From positions 1 to 64,000 of the IMG/VR virus record IMGVR_UViG_3300032245_001763: 64,000 bases of DNA, one strand, 5' to 3'. Positions 1,181 through 22,545 of the stretch are shown piece after piece. Position 1 is the stretch's first letter. Each line of letters starts with the position of its first letter. The position numbers and the translations under genes were made by a program. Below the pieces are notes generated by a model, which was not told the origin of the DNA, did not search any database, and worked only from the letters and a program-made list of their open reading frames with translations. Source of the DNA: a virus. Lineage: Duplodnaviria; Heunggongvirae; Uroviricota; Caudoviricetes.

Positions 1181-1259
1181 AGGTAATGCTCTGTTGGAAC
1201 AGAAATCGGTCTCCAAAACCGATGCTTAACGCTATGGGGTTCGATTCCTCCGTTACCTG
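1181..1259 (+). tRNA. tRNA-Trp(CCA), 79 nt with an 11-nt variable region
   Basis: Acceptor AGGTAAT/GTTACCT, anticodon stem ATCGGT/ACCGAT with loop CTCCAAA, T-arm GGGG-TTCGATT-CCTC. Confidence 0.55.
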
Positions 1260-1269
1260 CTTAATATAT

Positions 1270-1340
1270 GGGCATGTGGTGTAATGGATGCATAAAAATC
1301 TTCTAAATTTTTGGTTGCAGTTCGAATCTGCACTTGCCTA
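1270..1340 (+). tRNA. tRNA-Arg(TCT)
   Basis: Acceptor GGGCATG/CTTGCCT (6/7), anticodon stem AAAAT/ATTTT with loop CTTCTAA, T-arm TGCAG-TTCGAAT-CTGCA. Confidence 0.7.
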
Positions 1341-1377
1341 CTTTAACTTTAAATTACTTTAAAAAACTGAATAAAAC

Positions 1378-1611
1378 ATGGAAAAAGAATTAGACGATAT
1401 CATTTCTATTGATGAATTATCAATTTTTATTGAATTAATTACTTCAAGCACATATCCTAAATCAATTTTGAGAAGAAGACTTGATCTTTTAAACAAAAAA
1501 GAAACAGAACGTGTAAACAATTTAATTAAAAATATTGCTCAATCAGTCAATAAAATTGATGAAATTATTTCTGATAGAGCAGAAAAAGAAAATGATCCTT
1601 GGAAATTGTAG
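1378..1611 (+). CDS. hypothetical protein
   Basis: ORF track, 77 aa. Confidence 0.5.
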   Translation: MEKELDDIISIDELSIFIELITSSTYPKSILRRRLDLLNKKETERVNNLIKNIAQSVNKIDEIISDRAEKENDPWKL

Positions 1612-1618
1612 TTTATAT

Positions 1619-1709
1619 TCAAGAGTAGCATACGTTGGTTAAATGCAAACGACTGTTAATCGTTCGTAAGTATGAAAACTTACCGTAGGTTCGATTCCTA
1701 CCTCTTGAG
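1619..1709 (+). tRNA. Atypical 91-nt tRNA with anticodon GTT (Asn) and a class-II-like 20-nt variable-arm hairpin
   Basis: Perfect acceptor TCAAGAG/CTCTTGA, D-stem GCAT/ATGC, anticodon stem AACGA/TCGTT with loop CTGTTAA, variable hairpin GTAAGT-ATGAAA-ACTTAC, T-arm GTAGG-TTCGATT-CCTAC. Confidence 0.6.
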
Positions 1710-1724
1710 CTTTTTACTTTATAT

Positions 1725-1797
1725 TCTCCTGTGGTGAAATTGGGTATCATGACTGTCTGTTAAACAGTTGTTCCTCGTCCGAGTCGGGGTGGGGGAG
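1725..1797 (+). tRNA. tRNA-Asn(GTT)
   Basis: Acceptor TCTCCTG/TGGGGGA (with G-U pairs), D-stem GTGA/TCAT, anticodon stem ACTGT/ACAGT with loop CTGTTAA, T-arm CCTCG-TCCGAGT-CGGGG. Confidence 0.55.
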
Positions 1798-1894
1798 CTT
1801 ATTTTATTCCTAAAAAAGGAAATTTAATTATGAAAAAATTTAGTTATAAACGATGACTGCCTCTTTAATATTAGAGAGGCAGTATAATATACAC

Positions 1895-1967
1895 GCCTCT
1901 TTAGCTTAATTGGTAAAGCTCCTCGCTTTTAACGAGATTTATCAGGGTTCAAGTCCCTGGGGAGGCA
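1895..1967 (+). tRNA. tRNA-Lys(TTT)
   Basis: Acceptor GCCTCTT/GGGAGGC, D-stem GCTT/AAGC, anticodon loop CTTTTAA, T-arm CAGGG-TTCAAGT-CCCTG. Confidence 0.75.
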
Positions 1968-1976
1968 TTAACATTT

Positions 1977-2048
1977 GCTTCTCTAGTTCAATGGTAGAAT
2001 TTCCGACTTTTAATCGGTAGGATTTGAGTTCGAGTCTCAAGGGAAGCA
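1977..2048 (+). tRNA. tRNA-Lys(TTT), near-identical tandem paralogue of the next gene
   Basis: Acceptor GCTTCTC/GGGAAGC, anticodon stem CCGA/TCGG with loop CTTTTAA, T-arm TTGAG-TTCGAGT-CTCAA. Confidence 0.75.
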
Positions 2049-2057
2049 CTAAAACTT

Positions 2058-2129
2058 GCTTCTTTAGTTCAATGGTAGAATTTTCCGCTCTTAACGGATA
2101 GGATTTGAGTTCGAATCTCAAGGGAAGCA
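2058..2129 (+). tRNA. tRNA-Lys(CTT)
   Basis: Acceptor GCTTCTT/GGGAAGC, anticodon stem TCCG/CGGA with loop CTCTTAA, T-arm TTGAG-TTCGAAT-CTCAA. Confidence 0.75.
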
Positions 2130-2157
2130 TTAAAATTTTTTATAATTTATATAATTA

Positions 2158-2190
2158 GTGCAAAAATACAGAATAGTATTTTATTGGCAC
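2158..2190 (+). repeat. Solitary degenerate copy of the CRISPR-like repeat, 29 nt downstream of tRNA-Lys(CTT)
   Basis: GTGCAAAAATACAGAATAGTATTTTATTGGCAC. The internal hairpin is kept by paired deletions (AAAATAC/GTATTTT). Confidence 0.65.
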
Positions 2191-2252
2191 GAGTCCTCGG
2201 TGCGGGCATAATTAATTTTTTAGTTCTTTGACAATTTATTTTAAAATGAAGT

Positions 2253-2323
2253 GGCGGTTGTACCGGATGGCTAGGTTCCAGTCTGCAAAACTGGCTAAAT
2301 GGGTTCGATTCCCATAGCCGCCT
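2253..2323 (+). tRNA. tRNA-Cys(GCA)
   Basis: Acceptor GGCGGTT/AGCCGCC, anticodon stem CCAGT/ACTGG with loop CTGCAAA, T-arm ATGGG-TTCGATT-CCCAT. Confidence 0.75.
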
Positions 2324-20970: not shown

Positions 20971-21032
20971 TCTAGCGGCTAAGAGATCACTTTTACACAG
21001 TGGTAACGTCAGTTCGAGTCTGACAGGGATTA
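20961..21032 (+). tRNA. tRNA-Val(TAC)
   Basis: Perfect acceptor AATCCCT/AGGGATT, D-stem ATCT/AGAT, anticodon stem CACT/AGTG with loop TTTACAC, T-arm GTCAG-TTCGAGT-CTGAC. Confidence 0.65.
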
Positions 21033-21048
21033 CTTGTTTTTAAATTAT

Positions 21049-21124
21049 CAGGGTGTGGGCTAATTGGTAAGCCACCTAGTTAGGGGCTAGGATATACATG
21101 GGGATTCGACTTCCCCCACCTTGA
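21049..21124 (+). tRNA. tRNA with anticodon loop TTAGGGG (AGG, Pro-like?) and an 8-nt variable region; identity uncertain
   Basis: Acceptor CAGGGTG/CACCTTG, D-stem GGCT/AGCC, anticodon stem CCTAG/CTAGG, T-arm GGGGA-TTCGACT-TCCCC. Overlaps the 3' end of the minus-strand ORF 21080-21826. Confidence 0.45.
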
Positions 21125-21826
21125 CTGTTTTAAATTAATGATGTTAGAGATAATTGTTAAAAATTCTTTAGCTTTATTTTCTTTAAAATGTTTAAAATTT
21201 GATGTGTCAATAATACAAAGTTCAATATTGTTTTCTAAGCAAGCTTGAAATTTTCTATTATCATTATTTTTAATTTGATTTAACTTATTATCACCATAAA
21301 TTGGCTCATAGTGGAAAATTCCATTTAATTCAAAAGCTAATTTTAATGATGGAATGTAAATATCAAGTTCAGAATTGATTGCATCTTTTTTGTTAAATTC
21401 AAAATAAAGTTTTGGATGAAGAATTGGTAATTGCAATTCTAACCAAAATTCTAATTTAGATCTTCTGTAACCTTTTATTTTATGTGTGTTATTATAAGTT
21501 GCAGCACAAGATTTAGAACAGAAATTATTTTTAGTAACTTTAATTTGATTTAATTGTTTGGTAAATTCTATGTTGCATTGAGCACAATTAACTTTTTGTT
21601 GAGTTATTTTTGCTAAGTTGGAACATTTTTTTGAACAGTACAAACAACCGTTTGCGTATTGCATACAGTTTTTTGAACATGGTTTTAAATGATTTTTATG
21701 TAAATTTGTTTGGGAAATATACCTTTTCTTTTTGTAAAATGTACATTTGCATTTCAAACAAATTAAAGATAAGATATCATCCGAATTTGCTAAATTAAAT
21801 TCATCAATTGAAAAGTTAGTTTGCAT
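21080..21826 (-). CDS. Cys-rich zinc-ribbon protein with a C-terminal DUF559/Vsr-like (PD-(D/E)xK-fold) domain
   Basis: N-terminal CxxC pairs (CLKCKCTF, CMQYANGCLYCSKKC, CAQC, CSKSC). C-terminus DIYIPSLKLAFELNGIFHYEP...DNRKFQACLENNIELCII matches the DUF559 core D..iP...laiE.dG..H...D..R...L...G..v.R. Confidence 0.5.
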   Translation of the reverse strand: MQTNFSIDEFNLANSDDILSLICLKCKCTFYKKKRYISQTNLHKNHLKPCSKNCMQYANGCLYCSKKCSNLAKITQQKVNCAQCNIEFTKQLNQIKVTKNNFCSKSCAATYNNTHKIKGYRRSKLEFWLELQLPILHPKLYFEFNKKDAINSELDIYIPSLKLAFELNGIFHYEPIYGDNKLNQIKNNDNRKFQACLENNIELCIIDTSNFKHFKENKAKEFLTIISNIINLKQSRWGKSNPHVYPSP

Positions 21827-21833
21827 AATTTAT

Positions 21834-21877
21834 ATAGTAGTCAGATTCGAAATTTAAATTTCGAATCTGACTACTAT
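21834..21877. other. Perfect 22-bp/22-bp inverted repeat with no loop (ATAGTAGTCAGATTCGAAATTT|AAATTTCGAATCTGACTACTAT)
   Basis: Read directly from the sequence. It sits between the 5' end of the minus-strand gene 21080-21826 and the downstream tRNA block. Confidence 0.6.
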
Positions 21878-21995
21878 GACTGGATTAAATAAAGTAATAC
21901 TTAAATTTGTTACTCTTAAAAGAAATTTCAAGAGTCGAGGCGTGTGACCAAAGCAGCGTAATGGCTTTTCTGTATACGGTAAGCAGAATTTATAT

Positions 21996-22066
21996 CAGGG
22001 TATGGTATAGTGGGAGTACAGGAGATTTGGGATCTTCTAGCAGTTGTTCGATTCAACTTACCCTGA
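21996..22066 (+). tRNA. tRNA-Pro(TGG)
   Basis: Perfect acceptor CAGGGTA/TACCCTG, anticodon stem GGAGA/TCTTC with loop TTTGGGA, perfect T-arm AGTTG-TTCGATT-CAACT. Confidence 0.7.
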
Positions 22067-22160
22067 CTTTATTAGAATGATAGAAGGAATACATTTACAA
22101 TCTCCACCAAAATTAGGGGACTAAATATCTTTTTAGACTTTGTCTAATAAATTTTTATAT

Positions 22161-22229
22161 GGGGCGTCCAACGGGTTGGTACTGTGTTTTGCACATACGG
22201 TTTTATGGGTTCAACTCCCATACGCTCCA
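22161..22229 (+). tRNA. tRNA-Ala(TGC)
   Basis: Acceptor GGGGCGT/ACGCTCC, anticodon stem TGTGT/ATACG with loop TTTGCAC, T-arm ATGGG-TTCAACT-CCCAT. Confidence 0.6.
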
Positions 22230-22246
22230 ATAATTTTTGTTTAAAT

Positions 22247-22329
22247 GGGGTCGGGGGCACTGTTGGGAGTGTCGGCTGATTTGCAATCAGTCTATTTTCG
22301 CGGGTTCGATTCCCGTCTTCTCCACTGGT
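22247..22329 (+). tRNA. tRNA-like paralogue of the two Glu tRNAs with a poor acceptor stem (pseudogene?). Anticodon loop TTTGCAA (TGC).
   Basis: D-stem GCAC/GTGT, anticodon stem GCTGA/TCAGT, T-arm GCGGG-TTCGATT-CCCGT; acceptor GGGGTCG/CTTCTCC pairs only 4-5/7. Confidence 0.35.
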
Positions 22330-22341
22330 TTAGCTTTAAAT

Positions 22342-22417
22342 GGCGTAGCAGTTGCTGTTGGTATGTAATCTCAAGCTTTCAACTTGAAGTTCGCGAGTTC
22401 GATTCTCGTCTACGTCA
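22342..22417 (+). tRNA. tRNA-Glu(TTC)
   Basis: Acceptor GGCGTAG/CTACGTC, perfect anticodon stem TCAAG/CTTGA with loop CTTTCAA, T-arm GCGAG-TTCGATT-CTCGT. Confidence 0.7.
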
Positions 22418-22432
22418 CTTGGTGTTTTAATT

Positions 22433-22508
22433 GGTGCAGTAGTTGTTGTTGGTATATAATTTTAGGCTTTCAACCTGAAGTCCACGGGTTCGATTCCCGT
22501 CTGCATCA
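22433..22508 (+). tRNA. tRNA-Glu(TTC), paralogue of the previous gene
   Basis: Acceptor GGTGCAG/CTGCATC, anticodon stem TTAGG/CCTGA with loop CTTTCAA, T-arm ACGGG-TTCGATT-CCCGT. Confidence 0.7.
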
Positions 22509-22511
22509 TAA

Positions 22512-22545
22512 AAGAGGAATGATTTAAATCATTCCTATTTTTTTA
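22512..22545 (+). terminator. Rho-independent terminator closing the tRNA block (AGGAATGATTT/AAATCATTCCT plus T8)
   Basis: Perfect 11-bp stem followed by TATTTTTTTATT. Confidence 0.7.

What the first reader, a model, noticed from the sequence alone, without database searches (positions are those of the whole stretch)
1181..22545. Exceptionally dense tRNA gene array (35 or more tRNA/tRNA-like genes in 21 kb) with an isoacceptor bias matching the AT-rich proteome
At least 30 tRNA genes could be folded by hand: Trp, Arg(TCT, ACG), Asn(GTT) x3-4, Lys(TTT x2, CTT), Cys, Thr(GGT, CGT, TGT), Asp, Ile(GAT), Gly(TCC, GCC), Gln, Met(CAT), Val(GAC, TAC), Pro, Ala, Glu(TTC) x2, plus several of uncertain identity. 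Tandem near-identical paralogues occur (Lys TTT/CTT and the two Glu). The multiple Asn and Lys copies mirror the N/K-rich proteins encoded here. No 3'-CCA is encoded. No clean Leu, Ser, Phe, Tyr or His gene was recognised; these may be among the atypical genes. This scale of tRNA complement is characteristic of huge phages or giant viruses that compensate for host codon usage.
Basis: partly seen in the sequence, partly recalled or inferred. Interest (0 to 1): 0.6.

Follow-up and report, generated by a model that had tools for sequence, protein, structure and literature searches.

The report
Huge-phage tRNA gene array
This is a real cluster of about 31 transfer-RNA genes, plus some decayed copies, in a roughly half-megabase freshwater bacteriophage; such clusters are already known from phage T5 and other huge phages, so it is a good but ordinary example with a few oddly shaped tRNAs.

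Summary
ARAGORN tRNA genes, all on the + strand, between 1181 and 22509. None are called in 50 shuffled windows. Twenty-five pass Rfam's tRNA threshold, six are ARAGORN-only, and at least six more are sub-threshold tRNA-like relics. No gene encodes a 3'-CCA.

The host genome is a huge bacteriophage, not a giant eukaryotic virus. The array looks like a scaled-up version of the tRNA gene region of T5-like phages: small ORFs, HNH homing endonucleases (one overlapping a tRNA-Pro), tRNA-like RNAs, and its own promoters and terminators. Public viral contigs hold denser arrays, so "exceptional" is not justified.

The claim that the tRNA set mirrors the proteome is only partly true. Lys and Asn are multi-copy. 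Leu, Ser, Tyr and Phe, which make up 27% of codons, have no gene here, and the overall rank correlation is 0.08.

Side findings:
- Long-variable-arm tRNA-Asn and tRNA-His belong to widespread phage families.
- An 80-nt tRNA-Trp(CCA) has a selenocysteine-tRNA-like fold, and its anticodon is CCG in a 94%-identical relative.
- Two tRNAs have conserved 6-nt anticodon loops.
- A phage Cas12 CRISPR array abuts the cluster.

Verdict: new member of a known kind, modest interest.

The parts
1181..1260 (+). tRNA, anticodon CCA (Trp), 80 nt, non-canonical selenocysteine-tRNA-like fold
   Evidence: ARAGORN score 107.2. Rfam tRNA-Sec 43.8 bits, below its gathering score of 47. The minimum-free-energy fold has an 8-bp acceptor stem, 4-bp T stem, 5-bp D stem with a tetraloop and a 6-bp anticodon stem. 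Discriminator G73. The L033 orthologue differs at 2 of 80 nt, one of which changes CCA to CCG. The body classifier gives Trp 0.47.
1270..1341 (+). tRNA-Arg(TCT)
   Evidence: ARAGORN 116.3; Rfam 53.9 bits.
1619..1710 (+). tRNA-Asn(GTT), 92 nt, with a long variable arm (6-bp hairpin)
   Evidence: ARAGORN 125.6; Rfam 50.2 bits. U1-A72 and G73. Body classifier gives Asn 0.48. Belongs to a widespread phage family.
1725..1798 (+). tRNA-Asn(GTT), G73
   Evidence: ARAGORN 111.1; Rfam 41.4 bits.
1895..1967 (+). tRNA-Lys(TTT)
   Evidence: Rfam 58.7 bits.
1977..2049 (+). tRNA-Lys(TTT), tandem paralogue of the next gene
   Evidence: Rfam 63.6 bits. 89% identical to the gene at 2058-2130.
2057..2130 (+). 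tRNA-Lys(CTT)
   Evidence: Rfam 57.1 bits.
2253..2323 (+). tRNA-Cys(GCA), U73, weak D arm
   Evidence: ARAGORN 110.2; Rfam tRNA 32.4 bits and tRNA-Sec 34 bits.
3012..3085 (+). tRNA with a 6-nt anticodon loop (ATATTG); identity unclear; G73
   Evidence: ARAGORN 106.1, flagged as a possible pseudogene. No Rfam hit. 74 of 74 nt identical in L033 although flanking DNA is 94% identical. A promoter-like site lies 7 nt upstream.
4796..4866 (+). tRNA-Thr(GGT)
   Evidence: Rfam 64.7 bits.
5296..5368 (+). tRNA-Asp(GTC), G73
   Evidence: Rfam 53.2 bits. Body classifier gives Asp 0.49.
5554..5639 (+). tRNA-His(GTG), 86 nt, long variable arm (4-bp hairpin), C73, no encoded G-1
   Evidence: ARAGORN 105.0. 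Best Rfam hit is tRNA-Sec at 26 bits only. 86 of 86 nt identical in L033. Homologues with the same D loop and anticodon arm occur in L281 and L303. Body classifier gives His 0.41.
7534..7604 (+). tRNA with a 6-nt anticodon loop (TTATGG); identity unclear
   Evidence: Rfam 51.4 bits; ARAGORN 102.2. The loop reads TTTTGG in L033. A TTCACA-17-TATAAT site lies 8 nt upstream.
7892..7965 (+). tRNA-Ile(GAT)
   Evidence: Rfam 58.7 bits.
7972..8042 (+). tRNA with anticodon GTT in an aberrant loop (CAGTTTA: A33, U37), A73, body not Asn-like
   Evidence: Rfam 59 bits. The L033 orthologue has CAATTTA. The body classifier gives no Asn signal.
8501..8573 (+). tRNA with anticodon GTT, U73, body not Asn-like
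   Evidence: Rfam 54.8 bits. The classifier's top guesses are Cys and Thr.
9215..9288 (+). tRNA-Gly(TCC)
   Evidence: Rfam 53.4 bits.
10658..10731 (+). tRNA-Arg(ACG)
   Evidence: Rfam 44.2 bits.
11527..11597 (+). tRNA-Gly(GCC)
   Evidence: ARAGORN 106.3. Rfam 47.6 bits when a small slice is searched.
13039..13109 (+). tRNA-Thr(CGT)
   Evidence: Rfam 56.1 bits.
15094..15165 (+). tRNA-Gln(TTG)
   Evidence: Rfam 49.5 bits. A promoter-like site lies 13 nt upstream and a terminator-like hairpin lies at 15299-15319.
20253..20327 (+). tRNA-Thr(TGT)
   Evidence: Rfam 54.4 bits. A TTCACA-17-TATAAT site lies 75 nt upstream.
20527..20601 (+). tRNA with anticodon CAT: elongator Met, or Ile2 reading AUA
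   Evidence: Rfam 52 bits. A1-U72, so it is not an initiator. AUA is used 30 times per 1000 codons against 13 for AUG. Which of the two identities applies was not resolved.
20605..20676 (+). tRNA-Val(GAC)
   Evidence: Rfam 57.6 bits.
20961..21033 (+). tRNA-Val(TAC)
   Evidence: Rfam 54.3 bits.
21049..21125 (+). tRNA-Pro(AGG); overlaps the 3' end of the homing-endonuclease ORF on the other strand
   Evidence: ARAGORN 113.9; Rfam 47 bits in a small slice. Body classifier gives Pro 0.70.
21996..22067 (+). tRNA-Pro(TGG)
   Evidence: Rfam 57 bits.
22160..22230 (+). probable tRNA-Ala(TGC), poor D arm, G3-U70 and A73 present
   Evidence: ARAGORN 100.7, which is borderline. No Rfam tRNA hit. Body classifier gives Ala 0.71.
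22247..22325 (+). probable tRNA-Ala(TGC), 79 nt, G3-U70 and A73
   Evidence: ARAGORN 110.9. Rfam tRNA-Sec 26.6 bits only. Body classifier gives Ala 0.67.
22342..22418 (+). probable tRNA-Glu(TTC)
   Evidence: ARAGORN 106.7. Rfam tRNA 25.2 bits, below the gathering score of 29.
22432..22509 (+). tRNA-Glu(TTC), last gene of the array
   Evidence: Rfam 51.4 bits. A terminator-like hairpin follows at 22515-22536.
516..585 (+). sub-threshold tRNA-like element (CAT)
   Evidence: ARAGORN 99.2, reported only at a lowered threshold. T-arm at 561-577. L033 has a full tRNA-Met at the equivalent place.
3101..3172 (+). sub-threshold tRNA-like relic (nominal anticodon CTA)
   Evidence: ARAGORN 88.4. Perfect T-arm at 3147-3163. 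Not conserved in L033.
5480..5551 (+). sub-threshold tRNA-like relic (nominal anticodon CAA)
   Evidence: ARAGORN 88.5; Rfam tRNA 16 bits. Diverges from L033 at the neutral rate, 4 of 72 nt.
11604..11715 (+). tRNA-like element with acceptor and T arms but about 40 extra internal nucleotides
   Evidence: T-arm at 11691-11707. Fold z-score -2.05. No Rfam hit.
20677..20749 (+). sub-threshold tRNA-like element (loop AGATGGT), abutting tRNA-Val
   Evidence: ARAGORN 96.7. T loop is TTAAATT.
3422..4309 (+). SPFH/Band-7 protein gene embedded in the array
   Evidence: Pfam PF01145, E = 1.6e-17; phrog_200, E = 6.7e-63. Homologues in 657 phage records.
21080..21826 (-). HNH-type homing endonuclease inside the array
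   Evidence: Hits phrog_559, phrog_3339 and phrog_9084. Overlaps tRNA-Pro(AGG), as hegB overlaps tRNA-Pro in the T5-like phage record.
22899..24116 (+). treble-clef zinc-finger / HNH homing endonuclease just after the array
   Evidence: Pfam DUF4379, E = 4.5e-61; phrog_559, E = 1.9e-45.
767..802 (+). strong terminator-like hairpin (16 bp plus a T run) just upstream of the first full tRNA gene (the 516-585 relic lies before it)
22515..22536 (+). terminator-like hairpin closing the array
2977..3004 (+). promoter-like site, TTCACA-16-TAGAAT, 7 nt upstream of a tRNA. Similar sites lie at 7497-7525, 15053-15080 and 20149-20177.
   Evidence: Of the 7 TTCACA-N16-18-TAnnnT sites in the window, 4 lie 7-75 nt upstream of a tRNA gene. 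Promoter-like sites overall are not enriched over shuffles.
4888..4922 (+). solitary degenerate copy of the phage's own CRISPR repeat, inside the tRNA array
   Evidence: Matches the repeat of the array at window 1-390. Lies at an indel junction relative to L033.

Best explanation
The interval is the tRNA-rich region of a huge freshwater bacteriophage of about 0.5 Mb and 26.7% GC. It holds at least 31 co-oriented tRNA genes (25 of high confidence) in five clusters plus single genes, together with decayed tRNA-like relics. Between them lie small ORFs, an SPFH gene, DUF7666 paralogues and HNH homing endonucleases. This matches the organisation of the tRNA gene region of T5-like phages, on a larger scale.

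Shown here:
- The genes exist, fold as tRNAs and are conserved above background.
- The context is phage.
- No 3'-CCA is encoded.
- Identity elements agree with the anticodons for many genes.

Inferred mechanism:
- The genes are transcribed from phage sigma-70-like promoters as single-gene or multi-gene precursors.
- The precursors are trimmed by host RNase P and 3' nucleases.
- CCA is added after transcription.
- The tRNAs are charged by host (or phage) aminoacyl-tRNA synthetases.
- They keep phage mRNAs translated when host tRNAs are scarce, mismatched or destroyed during infection.

Codon supply for A/U-rich codons (Lys, Asn, Glu, Gln, Arg-AGA) is probably one driver. The set as a whole is not tuned to phage codon use. 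The non-canonical but conserved members (long-arm Asn and His, the selenocysteine-tRNA-like Trp, the altered anticodon loops) fit better with the published idea that phage tRNAs are variants that escape host tRNA-cleaving defences.
For: Gene calls:
- 31 ARAGORN calls against 0 in 50 shuffles.
- 25 genes pass Rfam's gathering score.
- All are on the + strand, like 70 of the 88 ORFs.

Phage context:
-.
- The source scaffold is about 530 kb.

T5-type architecture:
- The annotated T5-like record AJ604531 has 26 annotated tRNAs in 13.7 kb.
- It also has small ORFs, an HNH endonuclease overlapping tRNA-Pro, internal promoters and 'tRNA-like RNAs with unknown functions'.
- The window has the same parts.

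Purifying selection:
- tRNA columns are 97.6% identical to the relative L033, against 94.1% for other columns (Fisher p = 2e-6).

Identity elements consistent with anticodons:
- G3-U70 and A73 in both Ala genes.
- U73 in Cys.
- G73 in Asn 1619 and 1725, in Asp and in Trp.
- A73 in Lys.

Processing and transcription signals:
- No CCA is encoded in any of the 31 genes.
- Four TTCACA-type promoter-like sites lie 7-75 nt upstream of tRNAs, and terminator-like hairpins bracket the array.

Literature:
- Huge phages encode up to 67 tRNAs (PMC7162821).
- The T5 tRNA-rich region counters retron-Eco7 and PrrC (PMC11555353).
- Phage tRNAs carry anticodon-loop changes predicted to resist nucleases (PMC10264068).
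Against: - Expression, processing and charging were not tested; they are inferred by analogy with T4 and T5.
- Six of the 31 calls fail Rfam thresholds, and two carry 6-nt anticodon loops, so some may be inactive in decoding.
- The host is unknown, so neither codon compensation nor nuclease evasion could be tested directly.
- Leu, Ser, Tyr and Phe tRNAs are absent from this region and from 8.6 kb upstream. The rest of the roughly 530 kb genome could not be scanned.
Confidence: 0.85

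Rival explanations
1. Pure codon-usage compensation. On this view the set was selected to supply the codons that the AT-rich phage uses most and that a higher-GC host decodes poorly.
For: - Lys is present three times and Asn four times, and these are the first and third most used amino acids.
- Most anticodons have U34 or read A/U-ending codons: TTT, TCT, TTG, TTC, TGT, TAC, TGG, TGC, TCC.
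- Among amino acids with at least one gene, copy number tracks use (rho = 0.58, p = 0.018).
Against: - Over all 20 amino acids rho is 0.08.
- Leu, Ser, Tyr and Phe (27.1% of codons) have no gene, and Ile (8.8%) has one.
- Some genes serve rare codons: Thr(CGT) reads ACG, used 2.5 times per 1000; Val(GAC) has GUC as its direct match, used 2.0 per 1000.
- The close relative L033 carries two Arg(CCG) genes, although CGG is used 0.2 times per 1000 here.
- Host codon use is unknown.
Confidence: 0.3
2. Counter-defence set. On this view the tRNAs are structurally or sequence-altered substitutes, or decoys, that survive host tRNA-cleaving defence nucleases. Odd shapes and fast-changing anticodon loops would then be the selected features.
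For: - Non-canonical yet conserved members are present. The long-arm His and the 6-nt-loop tRNA at 3012 are 100% identical in L033, where neutral divergence is about 6%.
- Aberrant anticodon loops occur: CAGTTTA with A33 and U37, and U37 in Asp.
- Of 8 substitutions in the orthologous tRNAs (the Lys 1977 gene left out), 3 fall in the anticodon, where about 0.35 are expected.
- The GUN group (Asn, His, Asp) and Lys, which known anticodon nucleases target, are well represented.
- Published precedents exist (PMC10264068, PMC11555353).
Against: - No host nuclease is known here.
- The anticodon-substitution statistic rests on three events in one pair of genomes.
- The long-arm tRNA-Asn family also occurs in T5-like phages, where no such role has been shown.
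Confidence: 0.35
3. The window comes from a giant virus of eukaryotes (NCLDV), and the tRNAs serve a eukaryotic host.
For: - Low GC and a large genome.
- Glycosyltransferase and Fringe-like hits.
- Giant viruses can carry tRNA clusters.
Against: - Shine-Dalgarno-like motifs precede 34% of ORFs, against 6.6% of random sites, and start/stop overlaps are operon-like.
- Proteins hit PHROG families.
- The SPFH gene has homologues in 657 phage records.
- A Cas12 CRISPR locus lies directly upstream.
- The mimivirus early-promoter motif AAAATTGA is not enriched: 29 sites against 35 expected.
- No intron-bearing tRNA is found, apart from one implausible call with a 611-nt intron at 51500-52200.
Confidence: 0.03
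4. The long-variable-arm and selenocysteine-tRNA-like members are Ser, Leu or Tyr-type (or allo-tRNA) bodies with mutated anticodons. They would then insert the wrong amino acid at Asn, His or Trp codons, giving deliberate missense recoding.
For: - The array lacks ordinary Ser, Leu and Tyr genes yet has three long-arm tRNAs.
- The gene at 1181 has the allo-tRNA-like 8/4 shape with G73, and its anticodon differs in a near-identical relative.
- allo-tRNAs insert Ser at non-Ser codons in E. coli (PMC5389517).
Against: - A classifier blind to the anticodon and the variable arm assigns long-arm Asn to Asn in 93 of 134 cases, a rate like that for ordinary Asn. It assigns long His to His in 10 of 12 and long Trp to Trp in 4 of 4.
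- The window's three genes classify as Trp, Asn and His.
- Discriminator bases fit Asn, His and Trp (G73, C73, G73), and the long-arm Asn has U1-A72.
- The T5-type long-arm tRNA-Asn is annotated as a working tRNA that becomes an amber suppressor when its anticodon is changed.
- The variable arm of the gene at 1181 is only about 11 nt with 2 bp, which is short for recognition by seryl-tRNA synthetase.
Confidence: 0.07

Closest known systems
tRNA gene region (tRNA-rich region) of T5-like phages (Tequintavirus), e.g. GenBank AJ604531 and the region studied in PMC11555353
   Same: - Co-oriented tRNA genes in small clusters separated by short ORFs.
- Internal promoters and terminators.
- An HNH homing endonuclease overlapping a tRNA-Pro.
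- tRNA-like RNAs of unknown function.
- A long-variable-arm tRNA-Asn.

   Different: - The window's array is larger: 31 or more genes over 21 kb, against 26 annotated tRNAs over 13.7 kb.
- It sits in a genome of about 0.5 Mb.
- It lacks Leu, Ser, Tyr and Phe genes, which T5-like phages have.
- It has no nucleotide similarity to any GenBank phage.
- It contains long-arm His, selenocysteine-tRNA-like Trp and 6-nt-loop tRNAs.
tRNA complements of huge phages (Al-Shayeb et al. 2020, PMC7162821)
   Same: - A genome of hundreds of kb from an environmental metagenome.
- Tens of tRNAs distinct from those of the host.
- A phage-encoded compact type V CRISPR-Cas system nearby.
   Different: - This genome is not one of the GenBank records searched. 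The only link is a weak protein match (23% identity) to LR756511.
- The count seen here (31-37) is mid-range, not a record.
tRNA clusters of cluster C1 mycobacteriophages, and the nuclease-evasion hypothesis (PMC10264068)
   Same: - About 33 tRNAs per phage.
- Anticodon-loop deviations from canonical tRNAs.
- Poor fit to codon compensation.
   Different: - A different host group and genome type.
- Here the host and its nucleases are unknown, so the loop changes cannot be mapped to cleavage sites.
allo-tRNAs and (8/4) tRNAs of bacteria and phages (Mukai et al. 2017, PMC5389517)
   Same: For the gene at 1181-1260:
[quoted passage not shown]
- An 8-bp acceptor stem with a 4-bp T stem.
- A long D stem with a tetraloop.
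- A 6-bp anticodon stem.
- G73.
- An anticodon that varies between close relatives.
- Location in a phage tRNA cluster.

   Different: - The variable arm is short (about 11 nt, 2 bp) rather than long.
- The body classifies as Trp, not Ser.
- The published phage (8/4) species are Ser and His.
Class II tRNAs (Leu, Ser, bacterial Tyr)
   Same: The genes at 1619-1710 and 5554-5639 have a hairpin variable arm and are 86-92 nt long.
   Different: - Their anticodons are GTT and GTG.
- Their bodies and discriminator bases are Asn-like and His-like.
- Their arms are short hairpins. In the wider long-arm Asn family these are typically GNRA-capped.

Membership tests
Canonical tRNA (Rfam RF00005) | Covariance-model score at or above the gathering score of 29 bits | tested here: met
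   25 of the 31 ARAGORN calls pass. Six do not: 1181, 3012, 5554, 22160, 22247 and 22342.
Canonical tRNA (Rfam RF00005) | 7-nt anticodon loop with U33 and a purine at position 37 | tested here: inconclusive
   Met by most genes. Not met by 3012 and 7534 (6-nt loops), by 7972 (A33, U37) and by 5296 (U37).
Phage tRNA gene cluster of the T5 type | Many co-oriented tRNA genes clustered in a phage genome | tested here: met
   31 genes on one strand within 21.3 kb. Phage context.
Phage tRNA gene cluster of the T5 type | Small ORFs, homing endonucleases and tRNA-like RNAs interspersed among the tRNA genes | tested here: met
   ORF list. HNH ORF 21080-21826 overlaps tRNA-Pro. tRNA-like relics. Compare the annotated T5-like record.
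Phage tRNA gene cluster of the T5 type | tRNAs are expressed, matured and aminoacylated during infection | not testable with these tools
   Indirect support only: conservation above background and identity elements that match the anticodons.
allo-tRNA / (8/4) tRNA (for the gene at 1181-1260) | 12-bp acceptor branch split 8/4 or 9/3 | tested here: inconclusive
   The minimum-free-energy fold gives 8/4, while ARAGORN draws 7/4 plus one unpaired base. Too few homologues were available for a covariation test.
allo-tRNA / (8/4) tRNA (for the gene at 1181-1260) | Long D stem with a tetraloop and a 6-bp anticodon stem | tested here: met
   5-bp D stem with loop UGGA and a 6-bp anticodon stem.
allo-tRNA / (8/4) tRNA (for the gene at 1181-1260) | Long variable arm (an element for seryl-tRNA synthetase) | tested here: not met
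   The variable region is 11-12 nt with at most 2 bp (-0.3 kcal/mol).
allo-tRNA / (8/4) tRNA (for the gene at 1181-1260) | Discriminator G73 or U73, and an anticodon that is not fixed | tested here: met
   G73. CCA in the window against CCG in L033, with 78 of 80 other positions identical.
Class II tRNA (Leu/Ser/Tyr), for the genes at 1619 and 5554 | Leu, Ser or Tyr anticodon and body | tested here: not met
   Anticodons are GTT and GTG. The body classifier gives Asn 0.48 and His 0.41. At family level, long-arm Asn is assigned to Asn in 93 of 134 cases and long-arm His to His in 10 of 12.
Suppressor tRNA / alternative genetic code | A tRNA with anticodon CTA, TCA or TTA, and a stop codon that is not used as a stop | tested here: not met
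   The only candidate (3101-3172, CTA) scores 88.4, below ARAGORN's threshold, and is not conserved in L033. TAA, TGA and TAG end 42, 27 and 19 ORFs respectively.
Giant-virus (NCLDV) tRNA cluster | Genome context of a virus that infects eukaryotes | tested here: not met
   Shine-Dalgarno signal and gene overlaps, phage-family hits and an adjacent Cas12 CRISPR locus.

The most novel reading that the evidence does not exclude
Inside an otherwise ordinary array, the anticodon may be the fastest-evolving part of the tRNAs. Between two phages that are 94% identical, a conserved selenocysteine-tRNA-like scaffold reads CCA in one and CCG in the other. Another gene switches GTT to ATT, and a third changes its 6-nt loop. 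If this is selection rather than chance, huge phages are re-targeting tRNA scaffolds to new codons, or using them as nuclease decoys. Together with the long-arm Asn and His families, that would point to a layer of phage tRNA engineering that is not about codon supply.
Probability: 0.15. Interest if true: 0.65.

Novelty: new member of a known kind. Interest (0 to 1): 0.3.

Why it matters
The array itself adds one more well-resolved example of a huge-phage tRNA-rich region. It shows that the T5-type layout scales up to a half-megabase phage.

Two points have wider use. First, copy number here does not track phage codon use, which adds to the doubts about the classic codon-compensation explanation. 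Second, the array gives concrete, conserved test cases for asking whether phage tRNAs are shaped by host tRNA-cleaving defences: the long-arm Asn and His genes, the selenocysteine-tRNA-like Trp gene whose anticodon switches, and the 6-nt-loop tRNAs.

The survey made along the way is a small reusable observation. In a capped sample of IMG/VR viral contigs, about 8% of loci carrying a tRNA-Asn(GUU) gene with that T-arm motif had the long, typically GNRA-capped, extra arm. The same family is present in hundreds of cultured T5-like and Proteus phages. I did not find this described in the searched literature.

Tried and rejected
- **Nucleotide similarity to known phages.** A megablast of window 1-24000 against GenBank phages found no match.
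- **Giant-virus reading.** The motif AAAATTGA is not enriched, and translation signals are prokaryotic. Rejected.
- **Extension of the array upstream.** No tRNA lies in the 8.6 kb before the window (L032).
- **Introns and tmRNA.** ARAGORN with introns allowed added only an implausible gene with a 611-nt intron at 51500-52200, and no tmRNA was found.
- **Suppressor tRNA or alternative genetic code.** Rejected.
- **Long-arm tRNAs as mutated Ser, Leu or Tyr tRNAs.** Rejected on body classification and discriminator bases.
- **Control for the long-arm Asn survey.** The same pattern written for His (CTGTGAA) gave 107 non-tRNA matches in the 120 loci returned. In bacterial and archaeal genomes the Asn pattern gave 96 non-tRNA matches of 123. 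The near-pure tRNA yield of the Asn pattern in viral contigs is therefore a real enrichment.
- **Overall enrichment of sigma-70-like promoters.** None was found. Only the TTCACA subtype sits in front of tRNAs.
- **Literature on long-arm tRNA-Asn in phages.** Searches found nothing.
- **CRISPR spacer targets.** No match in GenBank phages, and no exact match in IMG/VR for two spacers.
- **Closest relatives by the SPFH gene.** Most do not carry a tRNA array next to that gene. Only L002 and L033 carry an array, and L034 has a single tRNA-Tyr.

Full report
**Observation**

ARAGORN with default settings tRNA genes in the 64 kb window. All are on the + strand, and all lie between 1181 and 22509. Fifty dinucleotide-preserving shuffles of the window give no call at all.

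Rfam's tRNA covariance model passes its curated threshold for 23 of these genes on the whole window. It passes for two more when short slices are searched with laxer filters. These are Pro(AGG) 21049-21124 at 47 bits and Gly(GCC) 11527-11597 at 47.6 bits.

Six calls rest on ARAGORN alone:
- 1181-1260, whose best Rfam hit is tRNA-Sec at 43.8 bits.
- 3012-3085, with no Rfam hit.
- 5554-5639, 22160-22230, 22247-22325 and 22342-22418.

Lowering ARAGORN's threshold and scanning for T-arms adds six degenerate tRNA-like elements. They lie at 516-585, 3101-3172, 5480-5551, about 11604-11715, 20677-20749 and 46866-46937.

Lys 1977 and Lys 2058 are 89% identical, and the two Glu genes are 79% identical. 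No gene encodes a CCA end, 0 of 31.

**What genome this is**

The window's proteins are found on a 530,789-bp scaffold of an ENA metagenome assembly and on a few shorter contigs. GC content is 26.7%.

The context is that of a bacteriophage:
- The SPFH gene inside the array hits phrog_200 (E = 6.7e-63) and has homologues in 657 GenBank phage records.
- Two HNH or treble-clef homing endonucleases flank the last tRNA cluster.
- A 5'-3' exonuclease, another HNH gene and at least 12 DUF7666 paralogues follow.
- Shine-Dalgarno-like motifs precede 34% of ORFs, against 6.6% of random sites, with a G peak at about -12 to -7.
- Sixteen of 72 same-strand gene pairs overlap start and stop.
- The mimivirus promoter motif is not enriched.

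Directly upstream of the array lies the phage's own CRISPR locus. It has 12 repeats of 35 nt and 11 spacers, and the last six repeats (the first of them cut by the window's edge) lie in window 1-390. Next to it is an 844-aa Cas12 protein that matches PDB 'Cas12X' with E = 5.6e-75 and Cas12j19 with E = 6e-13. Together this is the signature of the huge phages described by Al-Shayeb et al. (PMC7162821).

**Anatomy of the array**

The genes fall into clusters at 1181-2323 (8 genes), 3012-3172, 4796-5639, 7534-8573 and 20253-22509 (10-11 genes). Single genes lie at 9215, 10658, 11527, 13039 and 15094. The gaps between genes range from 3 nt to 5 kb and are filled with short + strand ORFs.

A strong terminator-like hairpin at 767-802 precedes the first full gene, and another at 22515-22536 closes the array. 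Of the seven TTCACA-N16-18-TAnnnT sites in the window, four sit 7-75 nt upstream of a tRNA, namely those at 3012, 7534, 15094 and 20253. Promoter-like sites as a whole are not enriched over shuffles.

The HNH ORF at 21080-21826 on the - strand overlaps tRNA-Pro(AGG) by about 45 nt.

**Comparison with known arrays**

The expertly annotated tRNA gene region of a T5-like Salmonella phage (AJ604531) shows the same parts:
- 26 annotated tRNAs in 13.7 kb.
- Short ORFs and internal promoters.
- An HNH endonuclease overlapping tRNA-Pro.
- Several 'tRNA-like RNAs with unknown functions'.

IMG/VR loci fetched for another purpose hold up to 35 tRNAs in 14.6 kb and 32 in 7.8 kb. Complete huge phages encode up to 67 tRNAs. 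The array is therefore real and large, but not exceptional in density or number.

**Codon-use claim**

I took 88 non-overlapping ORFs and counted codons. The most used amino acids are Lys 9.8%, Ile 8.8%, Asn 8.7%, Leu 8.2%, Ser 7.2%, Glu 7.1%, Tyr 6.0%, Asp 5.9% and Phe 5.7%.

The array has three Lys and four GTT genes. It has only one Ile(GAT) gene and no Leu, Ser, Tyr or Phe gene, although those four make up 27.1% of codons. Thr (4.7%) has three genes, including CGT for a codon used 2.5 times per 1000.

Gene copies against amino-acid use give rho = 0.08 (p = 0.75) over all 20 amino acids. Among the amino acids that are represented, rho = 0.58. The missing genes are not within 8.6 kb upstream, and the rest of the genome could not be read.

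**A close relative**

L033 is a 17.9 kb contig that is about 94% identical in nucleotides and syntenic with the window. Three points emerge.

1. tRNA columns are more conserved than other columns, 97.6% against 94.1% (Fisher p = 2e-6). The odd genes at 3012-3085 and 5554-5639 are identical over 74 and 86 nt. This argues that they are functional RNAs.
2. The relics at 5480-5551 and 3101-3172 evolve neutrally or are replaced in L033. This argues that they are decaying.
3. With the recombinant Lys 1977 gene left out, eight substitutions remain in the orthologous tRNAs. Three of them hit the anticodon, where about 0.35 are expected:
   - CCA becomes CCG in the gene at 1181.
   - TTATGG becomes TTTTGG in the gene at 7534.
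   - GTT becomes ATT in the gene at 7972.

   This is suggestive but rests on three events. L033 also has two Arg(CCG) genes, although CGG is almost unused here (0.2 per 1000), which again does not fit codon supply.

**The long-variable-arm genes**

The window has a 92-nt tRNA with anticodon GTT and a 6-bp extra arm (1619-1710; Rfam 50.2 bits). It also has an 86-nt tRNA with GTG and a 4-bp extra arm (5554-5639). I tested whether these are Ser, Leu or Tyr-type tRNAs with mutated anticodons.

*Survey of viral contigs.* I scanned IMG/VR for CTGTTAA, then 21-32 nt, then GGTTCGAWTCC.
- Of the 126 matches in those loci, 119 are ARAGORN tRNA-Asn(GTT) genes of 80-94 nt.
- They comprise 109 distinct sequences.
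- Nearly all lie in tRNA-rich phage loci.

*Controls.*
- The same pattern for His gave mostly non-tRNA matches, 107 in the 120 loci returned.
- The Asn pattern in 596 Gb of bacterial and archaeal genomes gave 96 non-tRNA matches of 123. About half of its true hits lie in tRNA-dense, phage-like loci.

*Frequency.* In a sample that allowed both short and long arms, 10 of 120 loci had the long form.

*Identity.*
- The long-arm Asn genes have G73 in 105 of 119 cases and U1 in 70 of 119, like ordinary tRNA-Asn.
- I trained a random-forest classifier on tRNA bodies with the anticodon and variable arm hidden; its cross-validated accuracy is 0.75.
- It assigns long-arm Asn to Asn in 93 of 134 cases, long-arm His to His in 10 of 12 and long-arm Trp to Trp in 4 of 4.
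- The window's three genes classify as Asn, His and Trp.

*Structure of the arms.* In the long-arm Asn family, 87% of the arms form hairpins of at least 3 bp, against 37% of shuffled arms. Sixty-one of them carry GNRA loops.

*Cultured phages.* The family is present in 655 GenBank phage records, including T5-like and Proteus phages, where it is annotated simply as tRNA-Asn. In the T5-like record, the 83-nt tRNA-Asn is noted to become an amber suppressor when its anticodon is replaced. That implies it works in translation.

The window's long-arm genes are therefore members of existing phage families of Asn and His tRNAs that carry an extra arm. They are not miscoding class II tRNAs. I found no paper that discusses this extra arm.

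**The first gene, 1181-1260**

Its minimum-free-energy fold has an 8-bp acceptor stem, a 4-bp T stem, a 5-bp D stem with a tetraloop and a 6-bp anticodon stem. It nearly reaches the tRNA-Sec threshold. This is the shape of the (8/4) tRNAs and allo-tRNAs that Mukai et al. found in bacteria and in phage tRNA clusters, and those have notably variable anticodons (PMC5389517).

Against full membership, its variable arm is short (about 11 nt, 2 bp) and its body looks Trp-like. I therefore file it as '(8/4)-like tRNA-Trp' and not as an allo-tRNA.

**Other oddities**

- Two tRNAs have 6-nt anticodon loops (3012 and 7534, the latter at 51.4 Rfam bits).
- The gene at 7972 has the loop CAGTTTA, with A33 and U37.
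- The GTT genes at 7972 and 8501 have A73 and U73 and bodies that are not Asn-like. The '4 Asn' count is therefore an upper bound.
- The single CAT gene could be Met, or the AUA-reading Ile2.

**How it most likely works**

By analogy with T4 and T5, the genes are transcribed from phage promoters. Host RNases process the precursors, CCA is added after transcription and host synthetases charge the tRNAs. Identity elements fit this. Both Ala genes have G3-U70 and A73, Cys has U73, and the Asn genes at 1619 and 1725, Asp and Trp have G73.

Their role is to keep phage translation running. The evidence here weakens codon supply as the sole driver. It is compatible with the counter-defence idea, in which variant tRNAs survive host tRNA nucleases (PMC10264068, PMC11555353). 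It does not prove that idea.

**Verdict**

The array is a new member of a known kind. Interest is modest, and is raised slightly by the conserved non-canonical tRNAs and the anticodon changes between close relatives.

Noticed in passing
window 1-390 (continues upstream to L032 8178-9013; Cas gene at L032 5516-8050, outside the window): A phage-encoded CRISPR array lies directly upstream of the tRNA array. It has 12 repeats of 35 nt (GTGCAAAAGATACAGAATAGTATCTTTAYTCGCAC) and 11 unique spacers of 34-40 nt; the window holds the last six repeats, the first of them cut by the window's edge. Next to it is an 844-aa Cas12-family gene that matches PDB Cas12X 9ix6_A (E = 5.6e-75) and Cas12j19 (E = 6e-13). 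No spacer target was found in GenBank phages, and two spacers had no exact match in IMG/VR.
   Followed up: partly
window 4888-4922 (and L033 9706-9740): A solitary, degenerate copy of that CRISPR repeat sits inside the tRNA array, between tRNA-Thr(GGT) and the next ORF. It lies at an indel junction relative to L033. L033 has its own solitary copy at a different place, where the window carries the tRNA-like relic 3101-3172. It could be a recombination scar or a solitary repeat unit with a regulatory role.
   Followed up: partly
window 16308-19053, 27442-28020, 28793-30398, 33516-34881, 48901-50189: At least 12 paralogous genes with an N-terminal DUF7666 domain (PF24703; phrog_14105 and phrog_4433), many in tandem. 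This is a large lineage-specific expansion of a phage protein family of unknown function.
   Followed up: no
IMG/VR loci L113-L232; GenBank phages (e.g. AJ604531 6938-7020): tRNA-Asn(GUU) genes with a 13-24-nt variable region, usually folding into a short, often GNRA-capped hairpin, are common in phages. In a capped IMG/VR sample, about 8% of loci carrying a tRNA-Asn gene with that T-arm motif had the long form. A relative of one such gene matches 655 GenBank phage records, including T5-like and Proteus phages. The same pattern found few such genes in bacterial and archaeal genomes. Long-arm Thr(TGT), Met, Cys and His genes also occur.
   Followed up: yes
window 712-807 and 21815-21900: Two long, near-perfect palindromic hairpins. 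They draw spurious Rfam hits (trpB motif at 41 bits, and MIR7994 on both strands). The first is a likely bidirectional terminator between the CRISPR array and the tRNA array. The second lies just upstream of the start of the homing-endonuclease ORF.
   Followed up: no
window 1181-22509, bases flanking each tRNA: The base before the tRNA is T in 26 of 31 genes. In 17 of 31 genes the discriminator is followed by C and then T, that is, only the first C of CCA followed by a T-rich tract. Several genes are immediately preceded by TATAT or TATAAT. This may be a shared processing or promoter signal.
   Followed up: no
window 40228-41547 and 51726-63888: A DUF1501 protein (E = 2.3e-86), glycosyltransferases, a polysaccharide pyruvyl transferase and several methyltransferases. 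These are cell-surface or polysaccharide-type auxiliary genes that are unusual for a phage.
   Followed up: no
L033 7251-7330 and 11809-11882: The close relative carries two tRNA genes with anticodon CCG (Arg, reading CGG). In the window's ORFs, CGG is used only 0.2 times per 1000 codons. One of the two genes is the orthologue of the window's CCA gene.
   Followed up: partly
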